Notes: generated by a model from the sequence alone, not told the origin. 64,000 nt of DNA from an uncultured bacterium (GCA_963727815.1 CAVSGV010000006.1:583471-647470), one strand, 5' to 3'. Shown: positions 10,739-59,902, counted from the first letter of the stretch. Program-made: numbers and translations.

Positions 10739-10783
10739 TTTACGCTTTCTTTACTTGCCAACCGGCTGCGGCAGTATGATAAT
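10739..10783 (+). promoter_or_regulatory. Putative KdpE box + -10 element, copy 2 (kdpFABC promoter)
   Basis: TTTACG-ctttc-TTTACT (10739-10755), then GATAAT (10778-10783), 9 nt before the kdpF ATG. It is a direct-repeat half-site pair with 5-nt spacing, as for OmpR/PhoB-family regulators. Confidence 0.45.
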
Positions 10784-10792
10784 GGCCGCATT

Positions 10793-10882
10793 ATGAACTT
10801 AGGTTTTATAGTCTCAGGAATTGTCGCTTTGATCATGCTGGTCTACCTGACGTACGCGATGTTCAATCCGGAGAAATTCTGA
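10793..10882 (+). CDS. kdpF: K+-transporting ATPase subunit F
   Basis: A 29-aa single-TM peptide, MNLGFIVSGIVALIMLVYLTYAMFNPEKF, immediately upstream of kdpA. Confidence 0.7.
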   Translation: MNLGFIVSGIVALIMLVYLTYAMFNPEKF

Positions 10883-10883
10883 C

Positions 10884-12572
10884 ATGCGGACAGCCGACTA
10901 CGCGCAGGTACTTCTTTATATCGGCGCTTTCATAGCTCTTACTCCTCTGCTTGGCTCCTACATGGCGGCGGTTTTCGAAGGCAGGAATACCTTCATGTCC
11001 CGCATCTGCGCGCCGGTCGAGCTTACATTATATAAGCTCTGTGGGATAGACAACAAAGAAGAAATGGGCTTCATGGACTACACGAAAGCGATGATCTGGT
11101 TCAATCTCTTCGGTTTTATTTTCGTCCTTGTCCTTCAGATGGTCCAGAAATATCTGCCGCTGAATCCCTACCACCTGCCGAACGTGGGCTGGGACCTTTC
11201 GTTCAACACGGCCATGAGCTTCATGACCAATACGAACTGGCAGGCATATTCCGGAGAGAGCACACTGAGTTATCTTACGCAGATGATCGGACTCACTGTC
11301 CAGAATTTCGTGAGCGCCGCGACGGGCATCGCAGTGTTCCTCGCATTTACAAGAGGGCTTATCAATCGTTCAACATCATCGCTCGGAAATTTTTGGACGG
11401 ACCTGGTCAGATCGACGGTCTACGTCCTTCTTCCTCTCTCGATCATCCTGGCTGTCCTTCTTGCGGGACAGGGAGTGGTCCAGACTTTTGCGCCGTATAA
11501 GAACATCACCACGCTCCAGGGAGCCCAGCAGGTGCTTCCGGTTGGACCAGCCGCTTCGCAGATCGCGATCAAGCAGCTTGGCAGCAACGGTGGTGGTTTC
11601 TACGGCGTAAACAGCGCGCACCCTTATGAGAACCCGACGCCTTTCTCCAATTTCCTTGAAGTGCTTGCGATAATACTCATTCCCGCCGGACTTGTTTATA
11701 CGTATGGCGTAATGATAAAGAATAAAAAACACGCGTGGCTGCTTTTCATCGTCATGTTCATTATATTCGCGGGAGGCTTGGCGCTTTCTTTGTGGTCGGA
11801 ATATTCAAGCGCGATACCGAAAGTGGTAACGGCGCTGGAAGGGCAGGAGGTCCGGTTCGGAGTCACTAACAGCATCATCTGGTCGGTGGCAACGACCGTC
11901 GTCTCGAACGGCTCCGTTAACGCGATGATCTCATCCCTTTCGCCCATTGCGGGCGGGGTGGCTCTATTCAATATCATGCTCGGCGAAATAATATTCGGCG
12001 GCGTGGGGGCAGGAATGTACGGAATACTTCTTCACGTCATGCTCACCGTTTTTCTGGCGGGGCTGATGGTGGGAAGAACTCCGGAATATCTGGGAAAAAA
12101 GATCGAAGGCAACGAAATGAAAATGGTCATTCTCAGCATTCTTCTGCCTTCCGTTTTCGTTCTTGCAGGGTCGGCGGTGTCTTGCGTTCTCCCCATCGCG
12201 CTCTCAAGTCTGGGGAACGGAGGGCCTCACGGTTTGAGCGAAATACTCTACGCTTTCACATCTGCTTCGAACAACAACGGCAGCGCGTTCGCGGGGCTCA
12301 ACGCCAATACGATCTATTATAATGTATTCCTCGGCCTTGCGATGCTCGTGGGCAGGTTCGGCGTGATAATCCCGGTCATGTACATTGCCGGCAGTATGAC
12401 AATGAAAAAGATATCACCCGTTACCGCCGGGACCTTCTCCACCGAAAGCACTTTGTTCGCGGTGCTTCTCATCGGCGTGTTCATCATAGTGGGCGTCCTG
12501 ACGTTCCTTCCGGCGCTGTGCCTCGGCCCCATCATCGAGCATCTCCTGATGCTGAAAGGATTCATCATCTGA
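10884..12572 (+). CDS. kdpA: K+-transporting ATPase subunit A
   Basis: 562-aa polytopic protein with KdpA-typical segments ([23 protein letters not shown] selectivity-filter-like motifs). Its position is kdpF-A-B-C. Confidence 0.95.
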
Positions 12573-14632
12573 TGGCGCACAAAGTTGAGATAGACAACAG
12601 AAAACTGACAATAAGAGCTATCGGAGATTCATTCCGGAAGCTTCATCCGAAGGAAGAGATGAGGAATCCCGTCATGTTCCTCACTTTCATCGGAGCGATA
12701 CTAACTACGTGTTATTCTCTCCATTCGTTTTTCAACGCCGTCATCAGCATATGGCTGTGGTTCACCGTTCTCTTCGCAAATTTCGCTGAAGCGCTGGCGG
12801 AGGGCAGGGGAAAAGCGCAGGCGGATTCTTTGAAGCGCACAAGGTCGGAGCTTACCGCCAGGCTTTTGAAAGACGGAAAAGAAAGCGTCGTTGCCGCCTG
12901 CAATCTTAGAAAAGGCGACGTGGTGGTGTGCGAAGCGGGCAACGTCATCCCCTGCGACGGCGAGGTCATCGAGGGAGTGGCGAGTGTTGACGAATCCGCA
13001 GTCACCGGCGAATCTGCTCCCGTCATAAGAGAATCCGGCGGCGACAGGAGCGCGGTCACCGGCGGGACAAAAGTTATCAGCGATAAAATAATCATTCAGG
13101 TCACTTCCAACCCGGGCGATACCTTCCTCGACAGGATAATACTTTTGATCGAAGGAGCCAAACGCCAGAAGACGCCGAACGAGATCGCCTTGAGCATCGT
13201 CCTCTCCGGACTTACGATAATTTTCCTTCTCGCGGTCGTCTCTCTGAAATTTTACGCGGACTACAGCGGAGCGGTGGCAAAACAGGATCTCTCTCACATC
13301 GTAACTGTTCCGGTCCTCGTGGCGCTCCTAGTTTGCCTCATCCCGACGACAATCGGCGGTCTGCTCAGCGCGATAGGCATCGCCGGCATGGACAGGCTCA
13401 TCAGGCGGCACGTCATCGCAAAAAGCGGAAGATCGATAGAAGCGGCGGGAGACATCGACGTCCTTCTCCTTGATAAGACCGGCACTATCACCATAGGCAA
13501 CCGGATGGCGTCAGAATTCGTTCCGGCAAAAGGGATCGAAGAAGCGACCTTCGCCGACATCGCGCAGCTGTCTTCCCTCGCCGATGAAACTCCGGAAGGA
13601 AGATCGATCGTAGTTCTTGCGAAAGACAGATTCGGACTTAGAGGCCGCGAATTGCAGGCGCACGAAGCAAAGTTCATACCGTTCTCGGCGAACACTCAGA
13701 TGAGCGGAGTGGATTTTATCGACGCTTCCGGAAAGGTAACGCGCTCCATACGCAAAGGATCCGTCGACGCCATCACCAAGCTTGCCGGCAAATTTCCGGA
13801 GGAGCTTGATTCCGCCGTTAAGAGGATATCTGCGAGCGGAGGCACTCCTCTTGCAGTCGCGGACGGCAATCGCGTCACGGGCGTCATCCATCTGAAAGAC
13901 ATCGTTAAAGGCGGAATAAAAGAAAAGTTCAAGGAACTGCGCTCTATGGGAATAAGGACGATAATGATAACCGGCGACAATCCTCTTACCGCGGCGGCGA
14001 TCGCGGCGGAGGCGGGAGTTGACGATTTCATCGCTCAGGCGACGCCTGAATCAAAACTCAAGCGGATAAGGGATGAGCAGGCGAACGGGCATCTTGTGGC
14101 GATGACGGGCGACGGGACGAACGACGCGCCTGCTTTGGCTCAAGCCGATGTTGGCGTCACGATGAACACGGGAACGCAGGCGGCAAGGGAAGCGGGCAAT
14201 ATGGTGGACCTGGAGAGCAACCCGACGAAACTCATCGACATAGTCGCCATCGGAAAACAGCTTCTCATCACGAGAGGGGCGCTCACCACTTTCAGCATTG
14301 CCAACGACGTCGCGAAATACTTCGCCATCATCCCCGCGATTTTCGGAACTCTTTACGCAACGAACGGGATGAACGGGCCGCTTTCCATATTCAACATCAT
14401 GAGACTTCACTCGCCGCAGAGCGCGATACTCAGCGCCGTTATCTTTAATGCTTTGATAATAGTAATGTTGATACCGCTGGCTCTTCGCGGAGTCGCTTAC
14501 AGGAGCGAGAGCGCGTCATCTCTGCTTCGGCGTAATTTGCAGCTATACGGTCTCGGCGGACTGGTGGCGCCTTTTATCGGGATAAAGATCATCGACGTCC
14601 TGCTCGCGCTAATGAAGGTGAACTTAAGATGA
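12572..14632 (+). CDS. kdpB: K+-transporting P-type ATPase subunit B
   Basis: P-type ATPase motifs DKTGTIT, TGDN and [13 protein letters not shown] set the start at ATG 12572, overlapping the kdpA stop (ATGA); the track ORF extends upstream artefactually. Confidence 0.95.
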
Positions 14633-15171
14633 AGCACATTACCAACGCTCTGAAAATGTTCCTGGCAATGACGATATTGACCGGCATCATATATCCGCTG
14701 CTCATCACAGGGATCGCTCAATTATGCTTCAACAAGCAGGCGAATGGCGATCCTTATCTCATCGGCCAGAAGTTCGACAAGAATAAATATTTCTGGTCCA
14801 GGCCGTCATCGGTGGATTACGCCACGATCCCGTCGGGCGCAAGCAATCTTTCCGCCACAAGCAAAGCCCTGAAAGATCAGGTCACCGCCAGGAAAAAAGC
14901 GATCCTTGCCTCTGACCGGACAAAAAAAGAAGCTCAGATACCTTCCGACATGATCTACGCGTCGGGCAGCGGCATCGACCCCCACATCAGCTATGCTTCC
15001 GCCGTTTTCCAGGCTGACAGGATCGCGAAAGCGCGGAAAATGAAAAAAGAAGACGTCATAAAACTGATATCGCAGGTGAGAGAAGGCAGGGACTTCCTGA
15101 TACTCGGCGACCGCAGAGTGAACGTGCTTAAGCTGAATCTTCTCTTGGACAAGCTATCATCGAAGGAATAA
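14629..15171 (+). CDS. kdpC: K+-transporting ATPase subunit C
   Basis: 180 aa with a single N-terminal TM and a KdpC-like GSGIDPHIS motif. There is a 4-nt overlap with kdpB. Confidence 0.9.
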
Positions 15172-15184
15172 AATAAAAAACAAT

Positions 15185-17881
15185 ATGGGCGATGTTTATC
15201 AACGGCTTACGCCGGAAGAAGCGCTGAAGATCGCGAGCAAGGGTCCGCAGAGAGGCAAGCTCAAGGTGTTCATCGGCTACGCCGCAGGCGTCGGAAAGAC
15301 CTTTACCATGCTCAACGAGGGCAACCGCCGCCATAAGCGCGGCGAGGACATAGTCATCGGATACGTTGAAGCTCACGGCCGTGCCGATACCGACGCTCAG
15401 ATAGGCGACCTCGAGCTCATCCCCAAAAAGAAGATAGAATACCAGGGACATACTTTCGAGGAAATGGATACGGAAGCCATCATCAAAAGGCATCCCACCA
15501 CCGTTCTCATCGACGAACTCGCGCACACGAACGTCCCGGGTTCAAAAACCACGAAGCGATATGAAGACGTTAGAGAGATCCTCGATGCCGGAATAAACGT
15601 CATAACCACCCTGAACGTCCAGCACCTGGAGAGCCTGAACGACATGATCAAGACCATCACCGGCGTCATTGTCCGCGAGACCATACCGGACAGCGTGGTG
15701 GCGCAGGCAGACGAGCTTGTGGCGGTGGACATCACGATCGACGCTCTTCTTAATCGTTTGAAAAGAGGAGACATCTACAAGAAGGACAAGATAGATTCCG
15801 CTCTCAGGAATTTTTTCCGCGAGGGCAACCTGAACGCGCTTAGAGAGATCGCTCTGCGGCAGACGGCGCAGGAAGTGGACGAGGACCTGGCGGAGTACAT
15901 GAAGGAACACGGCATCGAAGAAGCGTGGCAGACAGTGGACCGCATAATGGTCTGCATCGGCACAAGCCCCAACGCGAAAAAGCTGATAAGAAGAGGCGCC
16001 CTTATCGCCAGGCGCTACAGGTCCGAATGGTTCGTCGTGGCGGTGGAAGGAAAAGGATTTTTCGCCGCGAAATGGGACGGCAAGGATAAAACGGAGCTTG
16101 AGAGCAGTTTCAAGCTCGCGGAACAGCTGGGCGCGAAAACGGTCACGCTCTCCGGGCTGGACATCGCGTCGGAGCTGGAGAGGTTCGCGAGGCAGCAGCA
16201 CATCACGCAAATAGTCATCGGACATTCGGGCAGGACCCTTCTCCAGCAGATATTCGTCGGATCCACCACAAGCAGATTGATAAGAGAAACAAAGAACGTG
16301 GCCATCCACGTAATGCCGGTGAGCGAGTTCGAAGAGACCAAAGAAAGCTTCGCGCAGGGATTGCCGGGGTTCAATTTTGAGGGAGGCTTGAACGATTACT
16401 GGGTCATTGGGGGATCGCTTCTGGCGGTCACTGCCATCGGCTGGCTGCTCAAACCATATCTGGGATATCAGGCGGTCGGATTCCTGTTCCTGCTGGCGGT
16501 GCTCATCTTAAGCATGTTCATTTCGTTCTTTCCCATGCTGATATTTGCGGTCTTAAGCGTGCTGACGTGGGATTTTATTTTCATACCGCCGGCGAACACT
16601 TTTGTCATAGCGAAAAAAGAGGACATGATAATGTCCATCATCTATGTGGTAACGGCCGTGGTAATGGGCTACCTTACGAGCAAGATAAGGAAGGACGAGC
16701 GGCTCATCGCCGTCCGGGAGAACAGGTTCGAGACCATGTACAGGATCGTTTCCGTAATAGCTTCCGCAAGAGACCGCCACCAGTGCATAACCGACATTGA
16801 AAAAGAAGTTGAAGTGATGCTGGAGGGCAAATGCAAGGCAATAGTCAAGAACGACATAGTGAAATACGAGGACATCCTTCGGTTGAACATCCCCGGTGAC
16901 GAAAAGGAGCTTTCCGTCGCGATGCTGGTATATGAAAAGGGACAGCCTGCGGGATGGGGGACGGACATTCTTTCCGTTGCAAAGAACATTTACATTCCGC
17001 TGAAGGGACCGGCGGAAACGGTGGGCGTGCTCTCTTTCGGTCGTGAGAACAGGAAGCCGCTTTCTCAGGAGGAAATGAACATTCTGCTCACCATATCCAA
17101 CCAGCTGGCGGTCTACCTGGAAAGGGAGCTTTTAAGAGAGAGGGCGGTGGAGGCGCAGGAGCTGAGGGACGCCGAAAAACTTTATCAGACCGTCCTGAAC
17201 ACCGTTTCGCACGAAGTGAGAACGCCCATAACCACCATAAGCGGCATCACATCCGTCCTCAGGGATGAGAACGTCATCGGGAACGCGGATTCAAGGAAAG
17301 AACTTGTGAATGAGCTCTCCGATTCCGTGGAGCGGCTGGACCGCGTTTTTACGAACATTCTGGACATGACGAGGCTAAGCTCCGGCAGGATATCTCTCAA
17401 GAAGGAATGGTATGGACTTGATGAGATAATAAGCTCGATGCGCAGCGACCTGAGCAAGAAATTCGGCGGTCACAAACTTACCGTTGATATATCGGACGAT
17501 CTCCCGTCGTTAAGAGTGGACTTCAATCTTTTCCAGCAGGCGATATCGAACATTGTGCTCAACGCCGTCAATTACACGCCGGAGGGAACGGCTATCTCCA
17601 TCCGGGCGTCGAGGGACGCGGATAAAGTATCGATAATCATTTCCGATACGGGTCCGGGCGTGAAAGAGGATGAGCTTCCTTTCATATTCGACAAATTCTA
17701 CAGGGCAAAGGGCAGCCCTCCTGGCGGGATAGGCCTCGGACTCACAATAACGAAAGGCATCATCGAGGCGCACGAAGGGAACATCGCTGCGTACAATATC
17801 AAGCCTCACGGGCTTGCAGTAAAGATATTGCTTCCAGTTGAAGAAGAGCCCGAAGGCCTGGAAAAACTCATCAATGAGTAA
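15185..17881 (+). CDS. kdpD: Sensor histidine kinase KdpD
   Basis: 898 aa. It has the N-terminal KdpD P-loop domain (GYAAGVGKT), a USP-like region, a four-TM block, a GAF-like region, an H-box (SHEVRTPIT) and a HATPase_c domain (DTGPGV...GIGLGL). Confidence 0.95.
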   Translation: MGDVYQRLTPEEALKIASKGPQRGKLKVFIGYAAGVGKTFTMLNEGNRRHKRGEDIVIGYVEAHGRADTDAQIGDLELIPKKKIEYQGHTFEEMDTEAIIKRHPTTVLIDELAHTNVPGSKTTKRYEDVREILDAGINVITTLNVQHLESLNDMIKTITGVIVRETIPDSVVAQADELVAVDITIDALLNRLKRGDIYKKDKIDSALRNFFREGNLNALREIALRQTAQEVDEDLAEYMKEHGIEEAWQTVDRIMVCIGTSPNAKKLIRRGALIARRYRSEWFVVAVEGKGFFAAKWDGKDKTELESSFKLAEQLGAKTVTLSGLDIASELERFARQQHITQIVIGHSGRTLLQQIFVGSTTSRLIRETKNVAIHVMPVSEFEETKESFAQGLPGFNFEGGLNDYWVIGGSLLAVTAIGWLLKPYLGYQAVGFLFLLAVLILSMFISFFPMLIFAVLSVLTWDFIFIPPANTFVIAKKEDMIMSIIYVVTAVVMGYLTSKIRKDERLIAVRENRFETMYRIVSVIASARDRHQCITDIEKEVEVMLEGKCKAIVKNDIVKYEDILRLNIPGDEKELSVAMLVYEKGQPAGWGTDILSVAKNIYIPLKGPAETVGVLSFGRENRKPLSQEEMNILLTISNQLAVYLERELLRERAVEAQELRDAEKLYQTVLNTVSHEVRTPITTISGITSVLRDENVIGNADSRKELVNELSDSVERLDRVFTNILDMTRLSSGRISLKKEWYGLDEIISSMRSDLSKKFGGHKLTVDISDDLPSLRVDFNLFQQAISNIVLNAVNYTPEGTAISIRASRDADKVSIIISDTGPGVKEDELPFIFDKFYRAKGSPPGGIGLGLTITKGIIEAHEGNIAAYNIKPHGLAVKILLPVEEEPEGLEKLINE

Positions 17882-54445: not shown

Positions 54446-56113
54446 ATGCCGAAGAGAACTGACATCAAGTCGATACTTATAATAGGCGCCGGGCCGATAA
54501 TAATCAGCCAGGCGTGCGAGTTCGATTATTCTGGCTCGCAGGCTTGCCGCGTCCTGAAATCCGAGGGCTATAAGGTCATTCTCATCAACAGCAATCCTGC
54601 TACCATCATGACGGATCCCCAGCTGGCTGATAGGACTTACATCGAGCCCATCACGCCGGAGGTCATCGAAAAAATAATCCAAAAGGAACGGCCGGATGCG
54701 ATACTTCCCACTCTGGGCGGGCAGACCGCGCTGAACGCGGCGGTCGCTCTCCACGACAAGGGTATACTCAGAAAATACAAAGTGGAAATGATCGGCGCCG
54801 ACGCGAAGGCAATAAAGAAAGGCGAGAACAGGCTGCTGTTCCGTAAAGCTATGGAGAACATCGGGCTTGATGTTCCTAAGAGCGGCGTCGCACACAACAT
54901 GAAAGAAGCGCTGGCCGTCGTCGAAAAGATAGGTCTCCCGGTCATCATACGCCCAAGCTTCACCCTGGGCGGAACGGGGCAGGGGGTCGCGCACAACATC
55001 GATGAATACAGGGAAGCGGCAAAGATCGGCCTCGAAGCCAGCCCGATATCTGAGATCCTGGTGGAGGAATCCGTCGTTGGCTGGAAGGAATTCGAGCTTG
55101 AGGTCATGCGAGACAAGGCCGACAACGTCGTCATTATCTGCACCATCGAGAACTTCGACGCGATGGGCGTCCACACCGGCGACAGCATCACCGTGGCCCC
55201 CATCCAGACGCTGACCGACGTCGAATACCAGAAAATGCGCGATGCGTCCATCGCGGTCATCAGGGAGATCGGCGTCGAGACCGGCGGTTCCAATATCCAG
55301 TTCGCGGTGAATCCGAAGGACGGCAGGATGGTCGTCATCGAAATGAATCCGAGAGTTTCACGCTCGTCGGCATTAGCCTCGAAAGCTACCGGATTCCCTA
55401 TCGCAAAGATCGCCGCAAAGCTTGCTGTCGGCTACACGCTCAACGAGATCCAGAACGACATAACTAAACAAACTCCCGCGTGTTTCGAGCCCACCATCGA
55501 CTACTGCGTGGTAAAGATCCCCCGTTTCACTTTCGAGAAATTCCCTGGAGCGGATACGACACTGGGCCCATCAATGAAATCCGTGGGCGAAACGATGTCC
55601 ATTGGCCGCACTTTCAAGGAAGCACTGAACAAGGGACTTCGTTCGCTTGAGATCAAGAGCTTTGGACTTGATGACGTCGCCAAGGTGAAGGGCAAGGAGA
55701 TCACGCGCGAGCTGATAATCGATAAACTTACAAAACCGAACGCAGAAAGAGTTTTCTTCATCAAGTATGCCATTGAAGCGGGATTCACCATCGACGAGAT
55801 ACACAAATTATCATATATCGACCCATGGTTCCTGGAGAACATGAAAGAGATAATCGACTTTGAGCAGAAGATCAAGGAGTTCAATAAAAAGGAATTGCCT
55901 GCCGATCTGCTGCTTGATGCCAAGAAGATGGGCTTCAGCGACGTGCACATTTCGCGGCTCATTGGCAGCGATGAGATATCGGTCTACAATTTAAGGCAGA
56001 AACTCGAGATCACCCCGGTTTTCAAACTTGTTGATACCTGTTCCGCCGAATTCGAGGCTTTCACGCCTTATTATTATTCCACATACGAGATGGAAGACGA
56101 GTCGAGGGTTTGA
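54446..56113 (+). CDS. carB: Carbamoyl-phosphate synthase large subunit, N-terminal half only
   Basis: 555 aa covering the first ATP-grasp (carboxyphosphate) domain and the oligomerisation domain. It ends ...[24 protein letters not shown] at the internal domain boundary. A convergent gene follows 21 nt later. Confidence 0.9.
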
Positions 56114-56868: not shown

Positions 56869-57261
56869 GTGATGATCATGCCGGATGCAAATGTATATAA
56901 AGCCGGTGTCTGCAACATTGGTCCCGAGGAGAGAGCAAAAAGGAGGCAGGCCGGATACATCGGGCTGGCCGTATTATTAGTTCTCTGGGTCCTTCTTGTT
57001 TATTTTCATGTTCCACGCTTGTGGCGTCTCGTTCTGTTCTTCCCGGCATTCATGTCAGCCATCGGATTCATTCAGGCCAGGTTGATGTTCTGCGTTCATT
57101 TCGGCCTTTCCGGGCTTTTCAATTTCGGGCCGGTGGGAAAGACGGAGAGTGTATACGAAGCTAAATTCAGAGAGCTGGACAGGAAGATGTCGTGGAAGTT
57201 AATAGGTTACGCGGCAGCAATTGCGGTAGTCGTGACGGGCGTGGGGATGGTGTTGTTTTAG
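56869..57261 (+). CDS. Small membrane protein (3 TM)
   Basis: 130 aa with a GTG/ATG start. No family recognised. The stop overlaps the convergent downstream gene by 4 nt. Confidence 0.45.
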   Translation: MMIMPDANVYKAGVCNIGPEERAKRRQAGYIGLAVLLVLWVLLVYFHVPRLWRLVLFFPAFMSAIGFIQARLMFCVHFGLSGLFNFGPVGKTESVYEAKFRELDRKMSWKLIGYAAAIAVVVTGVGMVLF

Positions 57262-58040
57262 ACTGTCAATAATTGACGAGTAGTCGTAATAGTGCCGTCT
57301 TTTATGTGATATTGTTTATCATATTTAGTGCAAAACTCGATTACTTGCTGACTCAACTCGTTGAAATATTGTTTATGATCGGCATACTCAGATACTAGTC
57401 GATTGTAATTTAATCTCCCAAAAATGATCTTATCAACAAAACCAATTGCAGATAATATCTCTGAAAAATCTTGAGCTATTATGTTTGGCGTAGGATAGGG
57501 TTCGATACTCACCCAAGTCTTTATTCCTTTTTTGTGCAGATTATATAAGCTCTTAATTCTTGATGCCATTGGAGATGCGTGAGGTTCAAGGACTTTTCTG
57601 TGTTTGTCTTCAATCGTTATAAGGGTGATGCCATATTCATTCTCTTTGCTATAAGATGCCAGTTTAATTGGAAGGATACCCTTTGTAAGGGCAGTACATC
57701 TAATATTGTTCTTATTTAGCTTTTCAATTATTTTACACGTTAATTGGGAGATTTCTGGGTATTTATACATGAAAGGGTCAGTGGTGAAGCACATATGTAC
57801 GAACTGAATTTTGTCTTTTAATGAAGGGATTTCTTTGTCCAGCAATTTCAATGCGTTTTCTACTATTGCAGGCTTTATCCATTCCTGATAGTTTTTAATT
57901 TTTCCAAATCTTTTTGCCATCATCATCGCATAGCATGGATATAAGCAGCCATGGGAGCATCCCTGAGCATGGTTTATCGTGTAATCCCCATATTCAACGC
58001 CAGTTTGATAGAGTAATGATTTTCTAATAATTGTTTTCAT
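57258..58040 (-). CDS. SplB/COG1533-like radical-SAM-superfamily protein with a non-canonical C-x3-C-x3-C motif
   Basis: 260 aa. NHAQGCSHGCLYPCYAMM contains C28, C32 and C36. Overall length and layout resemble 'DNA repair photolyase' radical-SAM enzymes. The gene is ~33% GC (hand-sampled). Confidence 0.65.
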   Translation of the reverse strand: MKTIIRKSLLYQTGVEYGDYTINHAQGCSHGCLYPCYAMMMAKRFGKIKNYQEWIKPAIVENALKLLDKEIPSLKDKIQFVHMCFTTDPFMYKYPEISQLTCKIIEKLNKNNIRCTALTKGILPIKLASYSKENEYGITLITIEDKHRKVLEPHASPMASRIKSLYNLHKKGIKTWVSIEPYPTPNIIAQDFSEILSAIGFVDKIIFGRLNYNRLVSEYADHKQYFNELSQQVIEFCTKYDKQYHIKDGTITTTRQLLTV

Positions 58041-59200
58041 GATTTTCTTGTTAAGAATATATCATATTCTTTGTAATTATACGAAGAAGGAATGCGTCCT
58101 GTCGGGGTGCGCGGAGGAACCCACTCGGCTGATATGCCCTGGGCCTTTATAATAGTCTTAATACAATCCGTATATTCTGCCACCGATTTGATTATACCAA
58201 AATTATCGACAACACTAATTAATACATCTTTAAATAGAACCTTTGTATTCTTTGGGATGGAAGCATTAATAAATTTGTCGATATCAACTTTCACACGCGG
58301 GGTAAAGTAAAACAATAATAATTGATTATCTTTAGGTGCATTATTCATCTCAATCCACTTTTTATGCATATTATCTGCCATTATCATAAAACCATCTAGA
58401 TGATTAGTGCAGAATATCATTCGATATTTCGGCACATTCTTTGTTTGCGTTTTAATCGGGATGCTAATGACGTATTTGAAAATGGTCTTTAATTTATCGA
58501 TGTATCTTGTAGTAAATAACTCTTCAGCCTCATACATGCTGATCTTTTCATTCTTCTTTTCACTTACAATATCTTTCCAGTAAGCTCCACCTGCGATTCT
58601 ATTCCATGTTGTGGCATCATCTGTTGCATCCGTTTCATAATCAAGGTCGATATTTTCGTCTTCAAATTGTGGGTCACATTTAATTAATCTACATCCTTCT
58701 CTTAAGAACCCGAAAGTATTTAAATTAATGAGCACCTCTAAAGAATTGTATTTCCTTTCTTTAAGTATTTTGAATATATTGAAGTCTAAAGATTTAACGC
58801 CATAAGGATCGATATAGAGAAAAAGATTATTCGATTGAGGAACGGCTGACAAAGTAGGGTTAATCTTCTCCTCAAATGATCCCCCGACAATGCTTACTTC
58901 GGCATGCCCAGATAAGTTCACAGATAAATCCTCGAAATATTTCTTTTCAATACAGATTAGTTTTATTGCCGCAGAGCGCACTTCTCGTTTTATATCTCCA
59001 ATTCTATTAAGAATGATTAAGGGTGAGCCAAAATCTCCATCATCAAACTTACCTTTTCCAGCAAAGCAATCAATTATTGTCACTGGCTTCTTTGTGGAAA
59101 CAATCTTTCTTAAATAAGGGGTTAAATAGAAGTCTAAGATGCCATCTTTGAAAACTGACCATGACTTCTTTTCCTTAAAAAATTCATTTGTATTTGTCAT
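58037..59200 (-). CDS. TcmP-like protein ('three-Cys-motif partner protein'), SAM-MTase-like N-terminal domain
   Basis: 387 aa. The N-terminus (KKSWSVFKDGILDFYLTPYL), IIDCFAGKGKF (motif-I-like) and LFLYIDPYG (DPPY-like) fit my memory of TIGRFAMs TcmP. A 4-nt overlap with the Cys-motif gene gives the expected pairing. Confidence 0.6.
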   Translation of the reverse strand: MTNTNEFFKEKKSWSVFKDGILDFYLTPYLRKIVSTKKPVTIIDCFAGKGKFDDGDFGSPLIILNRIGDIKREVRSAAIKLICIEKKYFEDLSVNLSGHAEVSIVGGSFEEKINPTLSAVPQSNNLFLYIDPYGVKSLDFNIFKILKERKYNSLEVLINLNTFGFLREGCRLIKCDPQFEDENIDLDYETDATDDATTWNRIAGGAYWKDIVSEKKNEKISMYEAEELFTTRYIDKLKTIFKYVISIPIKTQTKNVPKYRMIFCTNHLDGFMIMADNMHKKWIEMNNAPKDNQLLLFYFTPRVKVDIDKFINASIPKNTKVLFKDVLISVVDNFGIIKSVAEYTDCIKTIIKAQGISAEWVPPRTPTGRIPSSYNYKEYDIFLTRKS

Positions 59201-59263
59201 GTGTGGGTATTTTACTCCTTTTCTTTCGTACTGTATATTTTCATGTGATGAATTTGGCCCATC

Positions 59264-59902
59264 CTATATCGTATAAACTATGATTATCCTGGGATAATAA
59301 TTCGGATCGTCATGATCATATATCTGCGTCAGATTGCTGAATGGATATGCTCCGGATCCGCAGGGAGATATTTGAACCCCGTAATTGGGCGATGTCCCGT
59401 TCTCCCATCCCCGTACCAGCGTCGTAATGTCGAAGCTGTTCTCTCCCGGAGCATCAATGGCGCTGGCGGCAGGATTTGTTGACGGCGGTATCGTTTCATT
59501 TGCCGTTGAAATAGTGGCCTTATCCCAGGAAGACGTTACTTTGTAAATGCCCGTAAGGCACTCCATAGATACTGTAAGATTTATCGTCCAAAAATGCAAT
59601 GTCGCGTTTACTATCGAAGCGCCGGATGGCAGCGTGGGCATGGTGAATTGCATGAACGCGTTCTCGGAAAGGGATGGTTTTGTAGGAAAAATAACGTAGC
59701 TCATGTAAAAATATTCCAAATATCCAACTTCGGAAGAGGAGCCGCTTGTTGAAACGAAAGCGCTTTGGGCAATGGTCGCTGTCGTTGAATAGTAGGTCGG
59801 CGAATTGGGCGAAGAACTGCTGACGATCACTGGTTTTGTGCAGCCAGCCGGCAATAACAGCAGGCATATTATCAAAGAAGCAAGATAAGCGTGTTTACTC
59901 AT
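59264..59902 (-). CDS. DNRLRE-domain lipoprotein
   Basis: Lipobox LLLLPAGC. NATLHFW..., YKVTSSWDKATIS, FDITTLVRGWENGTSPNYGVQIS and a terminal PRIIIVYTI match the DNRLRE-domain pattern as I recall it. Confidence 0.55.
   Translation of the reverse strand: MSKHAYLASLIICLLLLPAGCTKPVIVSSSSPNSPTYYSTTATIAQSAFVSTSGSSSEVGYLEYFYMSYVIFPTKPSLSENAFMQFTMPTLPSGASIVNATLHFWTINLTVSMECLTGIYKVTSSWDKATISTANETIPPSTNPAASAIDAPGENSFDITTLVRGWENGTSPNYGVQISPCGSGAYPFSNLTQIYDHDDPNYYPRIIIVYTI

What the first reader, a model, noticed from the sequence alone, without database searches (positions are those of the whole stretch)
57258..59200. Low-GC two-gene cassette: TcmP-like protein + SplB-like Fe-S enzyme with a CX3CX3C motif (uncharacterised pair, candidate nucleic-acid modification or defence module)
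- **Seen:** Two co-directional genes overlap by 4 nt (58037-58040). The block has hand-sampled GC of about 30-33% (lines 57661 and 58321), against about 57% in carB (line 55201).
- **Seen:** The block is packed tightly. Its 3' end overlaps the stop of the convergent gene 56869..57261 by 4 nt. Only 63 nt separate it from the upstream DNRLRE lipoprotein gene.
- **Seen, 387-aa protein:** It has a glycine-rich DCFAGKGKF segment (SAM-MTase motif-I-like) and LYIDPYG, which is reminiscent of the (D/N)PPY motif of RlmJ/N6-MTase folds.
- **Seen, 260-aa protein:** It has GCSHGCLYPCYA. That is the SplB/COG1533 'GC..xC.YCYA' context, but with one extra residue (C28-x3-C32-x3-C36).
- **Established (from memory):** TIGRFAMs defined 'three-Cys-motif partner protein TcmP' as a family that regularly sits next to a three-Cys-motif protein. 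To my knowledge no function is assigned.
- **Inference:** The cassette is a horizontally acquired module that acts on DNA or RNA. SPL-like enzymes act on DNA, and the partner looks like a methyltransferase fold. It could be a modification or anti-phage system.
Basis: partly seen in the sequence, partly recalled or inferred. Interest (0 to 1): 0.8.

Follow-up and report, generated by a model that had tools for sequence, protein, structure and literature searches.

The report
TcmP plus radical-SAM gene pair
A foreign two-gene cassette pairs a highly conserved iron-sulfur radical-SAM enzyme with a fast-changing methyltransferase-like partner; its function has never been tested, and elsewhere it usually sits among restriction-modification genes and mobile-element genes.

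Summary

**What the genes are**
- The two minus-strand genes overlap by ATGA. Their GC is 0.34-0.35, against 0.505 ± 0.03 for other genes in the window.
- The 387-aa protein is a TcmP (TIGR04474, 111 bits against a cutoff of 53). Its confident AlphaFold model is closest to the rRNA m6A methyltransferase RlmJ. Its C-terminal domain is variable and looks like a winged helix.
- The 260-aa protein is a radical-SAM enzyme homologous to DUF5131. Its GCxHGCxYPCYA (CX3CX3C) motif is invariant across its clade.

**What the surveys show**
- The pairing holds in both directions across 233 surveyed loci.
- Neighbours are dominated by restriction-modification genes, recombinases and XRE/ImmA regulators. 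The pair is almost absent from catalogued phage genomes.
- New here: the radical-SAM gene is nearly constant (median 63% identity across phyla). The adjacent TcmP gene is replaced like a cassette (median 19%). Breakpoints fall exactly at the ORF borders.

**Interpretation**
- Best reading (inferred, untested): a constant radical-SAM catalytic subunit is directed by a hypervariable SAM-binding, base-binding subunit. The pair acts on nucleic acid in phage or mobile-element conflict.
- No published function was found.
- I file it as a new member of a known but uncharacterised gene pair.

The parts
58037..59200 (-). tcmP gene (387 aa): an RlmJ-like class I SAM-methyltransferase-fold protein.
   Evidence: TIGR04474 scores 111.4 bits against a cutoff of 53. 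The AF2 model has pLDDT 87.4. The top Foldseek PDB hit is RlmJ 6qe5, E 7.9e-6. Full-length homologues are 40-48% identical.
59045..59071 (-). Codons for D44-CFAGKGK-F52, a methyltransferase motif I-like SAM-binding loop.
   Evidence: D44, C45, F46, A47, G48, G50 and F52 are invariant in 46 sequences. This is the only segment hhalign aligns to RlmJ motif I, LDTHAGAGRY. A D-x-(F/M/H)-x-(G/N)-x-G pattern is kept across divergent TcmP subfamilies.
58799..58810 (-). Codons for D131-P-Y-G134, a motif IV-like element comparable to DPPY of RlmJ and N6-adenine methyltransferases.
   Evidence: The four residues are invariant in 46 sequences. D-P-(Y/F/W, less often C/S) is kept in most divergent subfamilies. 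In RlmJ, D164 of DPPY is essential for catalysis (PMC3814359).
58040..58303 (-). Codons for the TcmP C-terminal domain (about residues 300-387): fast-evolving, with a predicted helix-strand-helix-helix-strand-strand order like a winged helix.
   Evidence: Median pairwise identity is 0.28, against 0.53 for residues 1-290. Median dN is 0.233, against 0.140 for the N-domain and 0.116 for the partner. The winged-helix assignment is inferred from topology only.
57258..58040 (-). Three-Cys radical-SAM partner gene (260 aa), a sister family of DUF5131.
   Evidence: Pfam Radical_SAM scores 34.9 (GA 29.5) and DUF5131 scores 24.3 (GA 28.9). hhalign against DUF5131 partners gives E 3.6e-6 over 195 columns. 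Foldseek matches radical-SAM enzymes. More than 7,900 homologues exist, the listed best ones 65-87% identical.
57927..57962 (-). Codons for G27-CSHGCLYPCYA-38: the C28-x3-C32-x3-C36 presumed [4Fe-4S] motif.
   Evidence: The motif is invariant in 30 sequences. 56 of 59 partners of this type in genome loci carry the Pro-containing CX3CX3C form, and 3 carry the canonical CX3CX2C form. The three Cys align with the CX6CX2C Cys of DUF5131.
58037..58040 (-). ATGA overlap of the tcmP stop codon and the rSAM start codon, implying translational coupling.
   Evidence: Seen. A 4-nt overlap is the commonest spacing (19 of 75) in related loci, and nearly all gaps fall between -56 and +38 nt. Recombination breakpoints between TcmP alleles fall at this junction.
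59201..59263 (-). 63-nt upstream spacer with AAGGAG (59215-59220) and a weak sigma-70-like match (59237..59209).
   Evidence: Sequence is. The consensus scan is (9 of 12 matches, weak evidence only). No Rfam family matches.
57258..57261 (.). Overlapping stop codons (TTAG) of the rSAM gene and the convergent 130-aa membrane-protein gene. This is the right edge of the low-GC block.
   Evidence: Seen. GC rises from 0.375 to 0.49 across this point. No flanking repeats or tRNA mark the borders.

Best explanation
This is an intact, horizontally acquired copy of the widespread TcmP / three-Cys radical-SAM gene pair.

**Shown**
- The two genes are translationally coupled and always occur together.
- The 260-aa protein is a compact radical-SAM enzyme. 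It is a sister of DUF5131, its motif is a CX3CX3C variant, and it is held nearly constant across phyla.
- The 387-aa TcmP has an RlmJ-like SAM-methyltransferase fold.
- TcmP keeps conserved counterparts of the RlmJ residues that bind SAM and the target base, plus a variable C-terminal domain.
- TcmP is exchanged as a cassette next to an unchanged radical-SAM gene.

**Inferred**
- The two proteins form one enzyme system.
- TcmP is the specificity subunit. It binds SAM, recognises a nucleic-acid site through its variable parts and presents a flipped-out base. It possibly methylates an exocyclic amine first.
- The constant radical-SAM subunit uses a 5'-deoxyadenosyl radical to carry out the conserved chemistry on that base or on its new methyl group.
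- The precedent is Trm5 followed by TYW1 in wybutosine synthesis, and spore photoproduct lyase acting on DNA.

**Inferred from context**
- The system serves phage or mobile-element conflict, either as anti-phage defence or as self/non-self marking of DNA.
- It is the same kind as PADLOC's untested candidates PDC-M30 and PDC-M41.
For: **Identity**
- TIGR04474 scores 111 bits against a cutoff of 53, and Radical_SAM scores above its GA.
- PADLOC PDC-M30A matches at E 7e-14, PDC-M41A at 8.5e-8, and the B subunits at 6e-6 to 1e-5.

**Fold**
- The TcmP model has pLDDT 87. Its top match is RlmJ, followed by other class I methyltransferases.
- The partner matches radical-SAM enzymes including spore photoproduct lyase and TYW1.

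**Motifs**
- TcmP has K18, D44xFAGxG, G58-S-P, E85 and D131-P-Y-G.
- RlmJ has K18, D40xHAGAG, G99-S100-P, E118 and D164PPY in the same order. The spacing from the Glu to the Asp is 46 residues in both. In RlmJ these residues bind SAM and the target base.
- Counterparts of most of these motifs survive in TcmP subfamilies only 12-20% identical; the Glu is often Asp.

**Coupling**
- All 73 TcmP genome loci with enough downstream sequence have a three-Cys partner.
- 75 of 80 metagenome loci and 67 of 73 IMG/VR loci found through the rSAM have a TcmP-superfamily gene immediately upstream.
- The 4-nt overlap is the commonest spacing.

**Modularity**
- There are at least 7 switches among CX3CX3C, CX3CX2C and DUF5131 partners on the TcmP tree.
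- Median rSAM identity is 0.63 against 0.19 for TcmP, and the two are uncorrelated.
- In L093 and L095 the rSAM proteins are 98% identical and the TcmPs 17%. Nucleotide identity of 95.9% starts exactly at the rSAM start codon.
- In L129 and L131 the flanks and the rSAM gene are conserved, and only the TcmP ORF is replaced.
- The same holds for the window's cassette against L240 and L242.

**Selection**
- dN/dS is below 1 in every segment, so both genes are maintained.

**Context**
- The 141 immediate neighbours include ResIII 7, Eco57I 7, N6_N4_Mtase 6, N6_Mtase 5, Mrr, GmrSD, integrases and XRE/ImmA.
- The same mix appears in IMG/VR loci.
- Individual loci sit next to NACHT, GmrSD, PycTM or a Dam-like methyltransferase.
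- Only 1 unverified record out of 50,697 phage genomes carries the pair.

**Horizontal transfer**
- GC and GC3 are 4-5 sd below the window's genes.
Against: - No experiment on any member was found. The substrate, the chemistry and the phenotype are all inferred.
- The link to RlmJ rests on fold and motifs only. Pfam RlmJ does not hit, and profile-profile alignment is not significant beyond motif I.
- The cluster-binding N-terminus of the rSAM model is low-confidence, with residues 1-57 below pLDDT 50. The geometry of the CX3CX3C site is therefore unknown.
- No nuclease or other obvious effector is conserved next to the pair. How a modification alone would stop a phage is unclear.
- In this window the cassette lies among housekeeping genes, with no defence or mobility gene nearby.
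- The whole TcmP protein varies, not just a recognition domain. That also fits a sensor role or evasion of an inhibitor rather than sequence specificity.
- Neighbourhood enrichment was not compared with a matched random control.
Confidence: 0.5

Rival explanations
1. The pair is a sensor-effector immune system that does not modify nucleic-acid polymers. The hypervariable TcmP would sense a phage component or be the target of phage inhibitors. The constant radical-SAM enzyme would be the effector. It would make an antiviral nucleotide analogue as viperin does, or drain SAM.
For: - The 'constant enzyme plus hypervariable partner' architecture and cassette replacement are typical of immune sensors.
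- The context is defence islands.
- A viperin-like enzyme appears among the Foldseek hits (rank 37).
- No nuclease is conserved alongside the pair.
- The extreme conservation of the rSAM fits a universal small-molecule substrate.
Against: - TcmP keeps SAM-binding and base-binding methyltransferase motifs even at 12-20% identity. That argues for catalysis rather than mere sensing.
- Its best structural match is a nucleic-acid methyltransferase.
- The rSAM is closest to DUF5131 and the spore-photoproduct-lyase neighbourhood, not to viperins.
- dN/dS is below 1 throughout, with no sign of positive selection at gene scale.
Confidence: 0.17
2. The pair is cargo that benefits the mobile element rather than the host. 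It would be a DNA hypermodification or anti-restriction module that marks the element's or cell's DNA to escape restriction. Phage Mu Mom and 7-deazaguanine systems work this way.
For: - The pair is frequently adjacent to integrases, large serine recombinases, XRE/ImmA modules and a MobF relaxase.
- 74 loci lie in predicted proviral contigs of IMG/VR.
- The pair lacks a restriction component.
- TcmP has an amino-methyltransferase-like motif IV.
Against: - The pair is almost absent from bona fide phage genomes (1 unverified fragment in 50,697) and rare on plasmids (3 distant hits in 72,556).
- Only 2 terminase genes occur among 85 neighbours in the 'viral' loci.
- In this window, and in L240, the pair sits in a chromosome with no element genes.
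- A protective mark would not obviously need rapid replacement of the specificity subunit.
Confidence: 0.15
3. The pair is a housekeeping or stress-related RNA modification system. TcmP would act as an RlmJ-like rRNA or tRNA methyltransferase, and the radical-SAM partner would extend the modification as TYW1, RlmN or MiaB do.
For: - RlmJ is the best structural match.
- TYW1 and other RNA-modifying radical-SAM enzymes are among the partner's matches.
- In this window the neighbours are housekeeping genes.
Against: - Distribution is patchy, and the anomalous GC indicates horizontal transfer.
- Cassette-like replacement of TcmP at 12-20% identity next to near-identical rSAM genes does not fit an invariant rRNA or tRNA target.
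- Neighbourhoods are rich in restriction-modification and mobile-element genes.
Confidence: 0.08
4. The pair is a DNA repair lyase of the spore-photoproduct-lyase type with an accessory protein, as the 'DNA repair photolyase' label from JGI suggests.
For: - The JGI source name is 'DNA repair photolyase'.
- There are weak hits to the SplB-like PA0069 and Rv2578c models.
- Spore photoproduct lyase structures match at TM about 0.47.
Against: - The scores of 46 and 40 bits are far below the curated cutoffs of 360 and 430.
- The Cys spacing differs.
- An obligatory, hypervariable methyltransferase-fold partner has no counterpart in spore photoproduct lyase.
- Many hosts are non-sporulating, and the context is defence and mobile genes.
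Confidence: 0.04

Closest known systems
TcmP / three-Cys-motif partner pairs (NCBIfam TIGR04474; PADLOC candidate systems PDC-M30 and PDC-M41)
   Same: - The 387-aa protein passes the TcmP model and matches PDC-M30A and PDC-M41A.
- It is followed by a three-Cys protein, as in every surveyed locus.
- Annotated examples pair tcmP with DUF5131 or 'phage Gp37/Gp68 family' genes.
   Different: - The partner here is not DUF5131 proper. Pfam scores 24.3 against GA 28.9, and the PADLOC B models match only residues 12-113 at E about 1e-5.
- It is a homologous clade with CX3CX3C instead of CX6CX2C.
- No curated model passes its cutoff for it.
- The kind itself has no tested function.
RlmJ (23S rRNA m6A2030 methyltransferase, Pfam PF04378 / DUF519)
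   Same: - It is the best structural match for TcmP (6qe5, E 7.9e-6, TM 0.54 normalised on RlmJ; DUF519 2oo3 also matches).
- The order of the lysine helix, motif I, G-S-P, motif II Glu and motif IV Asp-Pro-aromatic is the same.
   Different: - There is no significant sequence or profile similarity.
- Motif IV is DPYG rather than DPPY.
- TcmP has an extra C-terminal domain of about 90 aa and an obligatory radical-SAM partner.
- RlmJ is a conserved housekeeping enzyme, whereas TcmP is hypervariable and mobile.
DUF5131 (phage Gp37/Gp68 family; RadicalSAM.org Megacluster-5-2) and spore photoproduct lyase / COG1533 (Megacluster-5-3)
   Same: - The 260-aa protein is homologous to DUF5131 over nearly its full length, with the three Cys aligned.
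- RadicalSAM.org puts DUF5131 in Megacluster-5-2 and spore photoproduct lyase in Megacluster-5-3 (PMC9477430).
- Spore photoproduct lyase structures match the model.
   Different: - The Cys spacing is CX3CX3C, against CX6CX2C in DUF5131 and CX3CX2C in spore photoproduct lyase.
- Scores are below the family cutoffs.
- Spore photoproduct lyase works alone on a DNA lesion, whereas this enzyme always has a TcmP partner.
Type I restriction-modification (constant HsdM/HsdR with variable HsdS)
   Same: - Both combine a constant catalytic component with a specificity component exchanged by recombination.
- The pair is often physically adjacent to type I, II, III and IIG restriction-modification genes.
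   Different: - No restriction endonuclease or translocase belongs to the pair.
- The variable component is a whole methyltransferase-fold protein, not a target-recognition-domain protein.
- The constant component is a radical-SAM enzyme.
Trm5 then TYW1 (wybutosine pathway), RlmN/Cfr, prokaryotic viperins
   Same: - These are precedents for radical-SAM chemistry on nucleic-acid bases or nucleotides.
- In the wybutosine pathway, the chemistry acts on a methyl group first installed by a class I methyltransferase (established knowledge).
- TYW1 and a viperin-like enzyme appear among the Foldseek matches.
   Different: - The resemblance is only at superfamily level (TM 0.38-0.43).
- Those enzymes are not encoded as an obligatory mobile two-gene cassette.
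- No auxiliary cluster motif is evident here.

Membership tests
TcmP (NCBIfam TIGR04474) | Whole-protein score above the curated cutoff. | tested here: met
   The score is 111.4 bits against a cutoff of 53, covering residues 14-280 and profile positions 2-261 of 263.
TcmP (NCBIfam TIGR04474) | Encoded next to a protein with a three-Cys motif. | tested here: met
   The 260-aa gene overlaps it by 4 nt and carries C28-x3-C32-x3-C36. All 73 informative TcmP genome loci have such a neighbour.
Radical SAM superfamily (Pfam PF04055) | Score above the Pfam gathering threshold. | tested here: met
   The score is 34.9 bits against GA 29.5, covering residues 22-196.
Radical SAM superfamily (Pfam PF04055) | Canonical CX3CX2C cluster motif. 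| tested here: not met
   The motif is CX3CX3C (GCSHGCLYPCYA). One Pro is inserted relative to GCxHxCxYCYA, which three related partners carry. This is a spacing variant, not a loss of the three Cys.
Radical SAM superfamily (Pfam PF04055) | Partial TIM-barrel radical-SAM core fold. | tested here: met
   The AF2 model has pTM 0.75, and its core beta/alpha units are at pLDDT 80-97. Foldseek gives probability 1.0 to SuiB, NifB, PFL-AE, HydE and spore photoproduct lyase. The N-terminal cluster loop is low-confidence.
Radical SAM superfamily (Pfam PF04055) | [4Fe-4S] cluster and reductive SAM cleavage. | not testable with these tools
   This needs protein reconstitution, UV-vis or EPR spectroscopy, and a 5'-deoxyadenosine assay.
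DUF5131 / phage Gp37-Gp68 (Pfam PF07505) | Score above the gathering threshold, and CX6CX2C spacing. | tested here: not met
   The score is 24.3 bits against GA 28.9, covering residues 12-120 only, and the spacing differs. The protein is homologous (hhalign E 3.6e-6, 195 columns), so it is a sister family and not a member.
SplB-like COG1533 (NCBIfam PA0069 NF033668, Rv2578c NF038135) | Score above the curated cutoff. | tested here: not met
   The scores are 46.2 against 360 and 39.7 against 430.
RlmJ family (Pfam PF04378) | Sequence or profile match to the family. | tested here: not met
   There is no Pfam hit at E <= 0.1. hhalign against RlmJ aligns only motif I, with P 0.02-0.04. The RlmJ alignment available was not diverse (83-99% identity), so this test was weak.
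RlmJ family (Pfam PF04378) | RlmJ-type methyltransferase fold with the motif X lysine, motif I, G-S-P, motif II Glu and motif IV D-P-P-Y. | tested here: inconclusive
   RlmJ is the best Foldseek hit. Invariant K18, DxFAGxG, GSP, E85 and DPYG occur in the same order. The residue equivalences were mapped by eye and not by a significant alignment, and motif IV lacks one Pro.
PADLOC candidate systems PDC-M30 / PDC-M41 | Both the A and B component models are matched by adjacent genes. | tested here: inconclusive
   The A component matches at E 6.6e-14 (M30A) and 8.5e-8 (M41A). The B component matches only at 1.2e-5 and 6.1e-6, over the N-terminal 85-100 residues. PADLOC's own calling thresholds were not available.
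Restriction-modification system | A cognate restriction endonuclease alongside the modification enzyme. | tested here: not met
   No nuclease gene is adjacent in the window. No conserved third gene appears across 80 loci. Restriction-modification genes are frequent but varied neighbours.
Anti-phage defence system (general) | Experimentally shown protection against phage. | not testable with these tools
   No report was found for TcmP pairs, PDC-M30 or PDC-M41.

The most novel reading that the evidence does not exclude
The TcmP / three-Cys pair is a new class of two-component nucleic-acid-targeting immune or epigenetic system. One almost invariant radical-SAM catalytic subunit carries a non-canonical CX3CX3C cluster motif. 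Swapping in unrelated alleles of a methyltransferase-fold specificity subunit reprograms it. The system would produce a DNA or RNA base modification, or a lesion, made by radical chemistry that has not been described before.
Probability: 0.3. Interest if true: 0.85.

Novelty: new member of a known kind. Interest (0 to 1): 0.62.

Why it matters
**Why it matters**
- TcmP pairs are common. A profile search found 3,710 representative clusters (at 50% identity) at E <= 1e-3, and the rSAM partner has more than 7,900 homologues.
- They span many phyla and are maintained by purifying selection.
- No tested function turned up in the literature searched.

**What this analysis adds**
- It gives a concrete, testable picture: a constant radical-SAM enzyme and a replaceable RlmJ-like subunit.
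- Natural allele swaps are ready-made experiments. L093, L095 and L092 are one set, and L129 and L131 are another.

**If the model is right**
- It would add a radical-SAM-based mechanism to the restriction-modification and defence repertoire.
- It would add a new Cys spacing to radical-SAM cluster motifs.
- It could provide a programmable base-modifying enzyme.

**If it is wrong**
- The pair is still one of the more abundant unexplained gene couples in defence islands.

Tried and rejected
- **PDB sequence and profile searches.** Neither protein gave a meaningful hit.
- **hhalign of TcmP against RlmJ.** I tried a single RlmJ sequence and a 12-sequence alignment. Only motif I aligned, and not significantly.
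- **RlmJ homologue search.** The homologues returned were all 83-99% identical enterobacterial sequences. That search, my last of three, added little power.
- **PHROGs.** TcmP had no hit. The rSAM hit only families of unknown function.
- **Foldseek against viral structures.** Only generic methyltransferases matched.
- **Element borders.** I found no convincing flanking direct or inverted repeats, and no adjacent tRNA. How the cassette inserted is unknown.
- **Rfam.** No RNA family matched in or around the cassette.
- **Literature.** Searches covered TcmP, DUF5131, Gp37/Gp68, PDC-M30/M41 and CX3CX3C. They gave only annotation-table mentions, one untested neighbour of hna in S. meliloti (PMC12445080), and a NifB 'CX3CX3C' that looks like a misprint.
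- **Organism name.** It could not be recovered.
- **dN/dS.** I looked for positive selection on the TcmP C-terminal domain. Omega stayed below 1 (maximum 0.5), so I rejected gene-scale positive selection.
- **A conserved third gene.** No third gene is shared across loci, so I rejected this.
- **Specific coupling to one restriction-modification type.** Types I, II, IIG, III and IV all occur as neighbours, so I rejected this too.

Full report
**1. The observation**

The two minus-strand ORFs are real: 58037..59200 (387 aa) and 57258..58040 (260 aa). They overlap by ATGA.

The downstream stop overlaps the stop of the convergent gene 56869..57261 (TTAG). Sixty-three nucleotides separate the upstream start from the gene 59264..59902. 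That gene is a DNRLRE-domain lipoprotein (NF033679, 61.8 bits).

Sliding-window GC drops to 0.32-0.38 over exactly this block.

| Measure | Cassette genes | Other 56 ORFs of the window |
|---|---|---|
| GC | 0.349 and 0.342 | mean 0.505, sd 0.031 |
| GC3 | 0.349 and 0.335 | mean 0.615, sd 0.066 |

The cassette is thus 4-5 sd from the window's genes, and the two genes are the lowest in the window. The neighbours are housekeeping genes: carA, an N-terminal-half carB, a phosphatase, NAD synthase and a NifA-like regulator.

No tRNA, flanking repeat or recombinase marks the borders. No Rfam family matches. There is an AAGGAG 14 nt upstream of the start and a weak promoter-like match in the spacer.

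**2. The 387-aa protein**

[quoted passage not shown] It has no Pfam or PHROG hit. It matches PADLOC candidate models PDC-M30A (E 6.6e-14) and PDC-M41A.
- **Homologues.** Full-length homologues of about 390 aa are only 40-48% identical.
- **Invariant residues.** In 46 homologues these are K18-D19, D44-C-F-A-G-x-G-x-F52, G58-S-P60, I84-E85, D131-P-Y-G134, E155/N159/G164-F-x-R167 and P257-K-Y-R260.
- **Structure.** The AlphaFold model is confident (pLDDT 87.4, pTM 0.87). Its best PDB match is E. coli RlmJ (6qe5, E 7.9e-6, TM 0.54 on the target), with DUF519 2oo3 and many class I methyltransferases behind it. Viral structures gave only generic methyltransferases.
- **Active-site comparison.** The RlmJ structure paper describes four functional elements. 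K18 positions the catalytic D164 of the DPPY motif. H42 of motif I stacks on the SAM adenine. S100 binds the methionine part of SAM, and E118 binds the ribose (PMC3814359). TcmP has invariant counterparts in the same order, and the spacing from the Glu to the Asp is 46 residues in both.
- **Caveat.** This mapping is by eye. Profile-profile comparison aligned only motif I and was not significant. The RlmJ alignment I could build was not diverse.
- **C-terminal domain.** Residues about 300-387 have a helix-strand-helix-helix-strand-strand order like a winged helix. That is an inference from topology.

**3. The 260-aa protein**

- **Family.** It passes Pfam Radical_SAM (34.9 against 29.5) and narrowly misses DUF5131 (24.3 against 28.9). 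SplB-like NCBIfam models score far below their cutoffs (46 against 360, and 40 against 430).
- **Homologues.** More than 7,900 exist. The best 120 listed are 65-87% identical, and they come from Nitrospirota, Firestonebacteria, Margulisbacteria, Treponema, Endomicrobium and clostridia.
- **Cys motif.** GCxHGCxYPCYA is invariant. It is the GCxHxCxYCYA motif of SplB-type relatives with one Pro inserted. Three related partners still carry the canonical form.
- **Relation to DUF5131.** A profile comparison shows homology over 195 columns (E 3.6e-6), and the three Cys align. RadicalSAM.org places DUF5131 in Megacluster-5-2 and spore photoproduct lyase in Megacluster-5-3 (PMC9477430).
- **Structure.** The model (pLDDT 72, pTM 0.75) has a confident barrel. 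The cluster loop (residues 1-57) is low-confidence. It matches radical-SAM enzymes including spore photoproduct lyase, TYW1 and a viperin-like enzyme.
- **Literature.** I found no description of a CX3CX3C radical-SAM motif. One mention for NifB appears to be a misprint.

**4. The two genes are one unit**

| Starting point | Loci surveyed | Result |
|---|---|---|
| TcmP, reference genomes | 80 kept of 213 relatives | All 73 loci with enough downstream sequence have a three-Cys partner: 56 CX3CX3C, 3 CX3CX2C, 14 DUF5131 (CX6CX2C) |
| rSAM, metagenomes | 80 | 75 have a TcmP-superfamily gene immediately upstream |
| rSAM, IMG/VR contigs | 73 | 67 have one |

In the metagenome set the 4-nt overlap is the commonest spacing (19 of 75 loci). 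No third gene is conserved.

**5. A constant enzyme and a replaceable partner (new here)**

- On a TcmP tree the partner type changes at least 7 times.
- In 57 metagenome loci, median pairwise identity is 0.19 for TcmP (minimum 0.12, at least 11 subfamilies). For the adjacent rSAM it is 0.63 (minimum 0.53). The two are uncorrelated.
- L093 and L095 have 98%-identical rSAM proteins next to TcmPs that are 17% identical. Nucleotide identity of 95.9% begins exactly at the rSAM start codon.
- In L129 and L131 the upstream flank, 75 nt just before the tcmP start, and the rSAM gene are 86-91% identical. The TcmP ORFs are unrelated at the DNA level.
- The window's own cassette behaves the same way. 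Its rSAM is 84% and 81% identical to those of L240 and L242, and nucleotide similarity is confined to the rSAM ORF. Their TcmPs are a 305-aa distant subfamily and a 372-aa protein 41% identical over the N-domain.
- Across the subfamilies the lysine helix, motif I, G-S/T-P and D-P-aromatic persist.
- All segments are under purifying selection. Omega is 0.03-0.14 for the rSAM, 0.03-0.21 for the TcmP N-domain and 0.04-0.50 for the C-domain. Median dN is 0.116, 0.140 and 0.233 respectively.

**6. Context**

- **Genome loci.** The 141 immediate neighbours in the genome loci include ResIII (7), Eco57I (7), N6_N4_Mtase (6), N6_Mtase (5), Mrr, HsdM_N, MmeI and integrases. PADLOC type I, II and III methyltransferase models also match.
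- **Recurrent neighbour clusters.** These are XRE plus ImmA/IrrE-like peptidases, HsdM and HsdR, a long N6_N4 methyltransferase, ResIII-Eco57I fusions, GmrSD, and serine and tyrosine recombinases.
- **IMG/VR loci.** The mix is the same, with only two terminases among 85 neighbours.
- **Individual loci.** They sit next to NACHT, an integrase and MobF, a Dam-like methyltransferase, and GmrSD and PycTM.
- **Phages and plasmids.** Only one unverified virome fragment among 50,697 phage records carries the pair. Only three distant TcmP-DUF5131 pairs occur in 72,556 plasmids.
- **Control.** I did not run a matched random control. The statement that restriction-modification genes are normally below about 1% of genes rests on general knowledge.

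**7. Mechanism**

*Shown:* the identity of both proteins, their folds, obligatory pairing, translational coupling, modular exchange, purifying selection, foreign composition and a neighbourhood rich in restriction-modification genes.

*Inferred:*
- TcmP binds SAM and a flipped-out base, like an exocyclic-amine methyltransferase.
- TcmP provides specificity, and the constant rSAM supplies radical chemistry on the presented base or on a methyl group TcmP installs.
- Precedents from established knowledge are Trm5 followed by TYW1, spore photoproduct lyase on DNA, and RlmN/Cfr.
- The biological role is phage or mobile-element conflict.

I put about 0.5 on this. The rivals are:
- a sensor-effector system making a small molecule or draining SAM (0.17);
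- element-serving anti-restriction hypermodification (0.15);
- housekeeping RNA modification (0.08);
- repair of the spore-photoproduct-lyase type (0.04).

The main weaknesses are the lack of any experiment, the absence of an obvious effector, and the low-confidence cluster loop. TcmP also varies over its whole length, which fits a sensor equally well.

**8. Novelty and score**

The gene pair is a known association (TIGR04474) and a listed but untested PADLOC candidate. This locus is therefore a new member of a known kind.

Three things appear to be new:
- the CX3CX3C sister clade of DUF5131, for which no curated model passes its cutoff;
- the fold-level link of TcmP to RlmJ with a conserved active-site layout;
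- the constant-rSAM, cassette-TcmP architecture with breakpoints at the ORF borders.

TcmP is abundant: a profile search found 3,710 representative clusters at E <= 1e-3. Interest is 0.62.

Noticed in passing
L083:4161-4859 (Logan assembly of run ERR11594402, same locus as window 57258-58040): An independent assembly of the same locus is 99.94% identical over 5 kb. It has a 1-nt indel after codon ~228 of the rSAM gene, which gives a truncated 232-aa product (P0121). This is either an assembly error or a real inactivating variant. The window's version matches the family consensus to its end.
   Followed up: partly
window 54446-56113 (+): The carB-like gene encodes only 555 aa, matching positions 1-545 of the 1,058-residue carbamoyl-phosphate synthase large-subunit model. 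The next gene is an unrelated phosphatase on the other strand. carB is therefore split or truncated here, and the C-terminal half lies elsewhere.
   Followed up: no
L005:478-3341 and L013:10001-12851: In two sister loci (Lutispora and Calditrichales), a tyrosine integrase gene lies between tcmP and an inverted rSAM gene about 1.7 kb away. The usual arrangement is a tight tandem. This could be an invertible or disrupted arrangement.
   Followed up: no
L042, L043, L045, L053, L056, L058, L061, L071, L077 (genes -3 to -1 relative to tcmP): Nine Firmicutes loci share a co-directional upstream module. It consists of an XRE-type HTH protein and two paralogous ImmA/IrrE-like M78 peptidases with zinc ribbons. 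It may be a regulatory switch for the pair, or part of the carrying element.
   Followed up: partly
L174, L180, L184, L185, L190, L203, L204 (IMG/VR), positions ~10775-16100: In several proviral contigs, two long ORFs follow the rSAM gene after only about 19 nt, on the same strand. I did not annotate these ORFs one by one. N6_N4_Mtase and ResIII are the commonest Pfam families among the 85 neighbours scanned, so they probably form a type III restriction-modification system. Whether this is operonic coupling or one element sampled many times was not resolved.
   Followed up: partly
L047 vs L054: The rSAM genes are 97% identical (dS 0.125). The adjacent TcmP N-domains have dS about 1.0 and dN 0.135. 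This is another recent TcmP replacement, here within the reference-genome set.
   Followed up: partly
S. meliloti SMa2243 (literature, PMC12445080): A TcmP gene lies in the neighbourhood of the validated Hna defence gene (SMa2245). It is co-upregulated with hna in a nolR+ strain. Its own contribution to defence was not examined in that paper.
   Followed up: no
window 57100-57116 (+): The only terminator-like hairpins near the cassette lie inside the convergent 130-aa membrane-protein gene. None lies between the two converging stop codons at 57258-57261. Transcription from each side may therefore read into the other gene.
   Followed up: no
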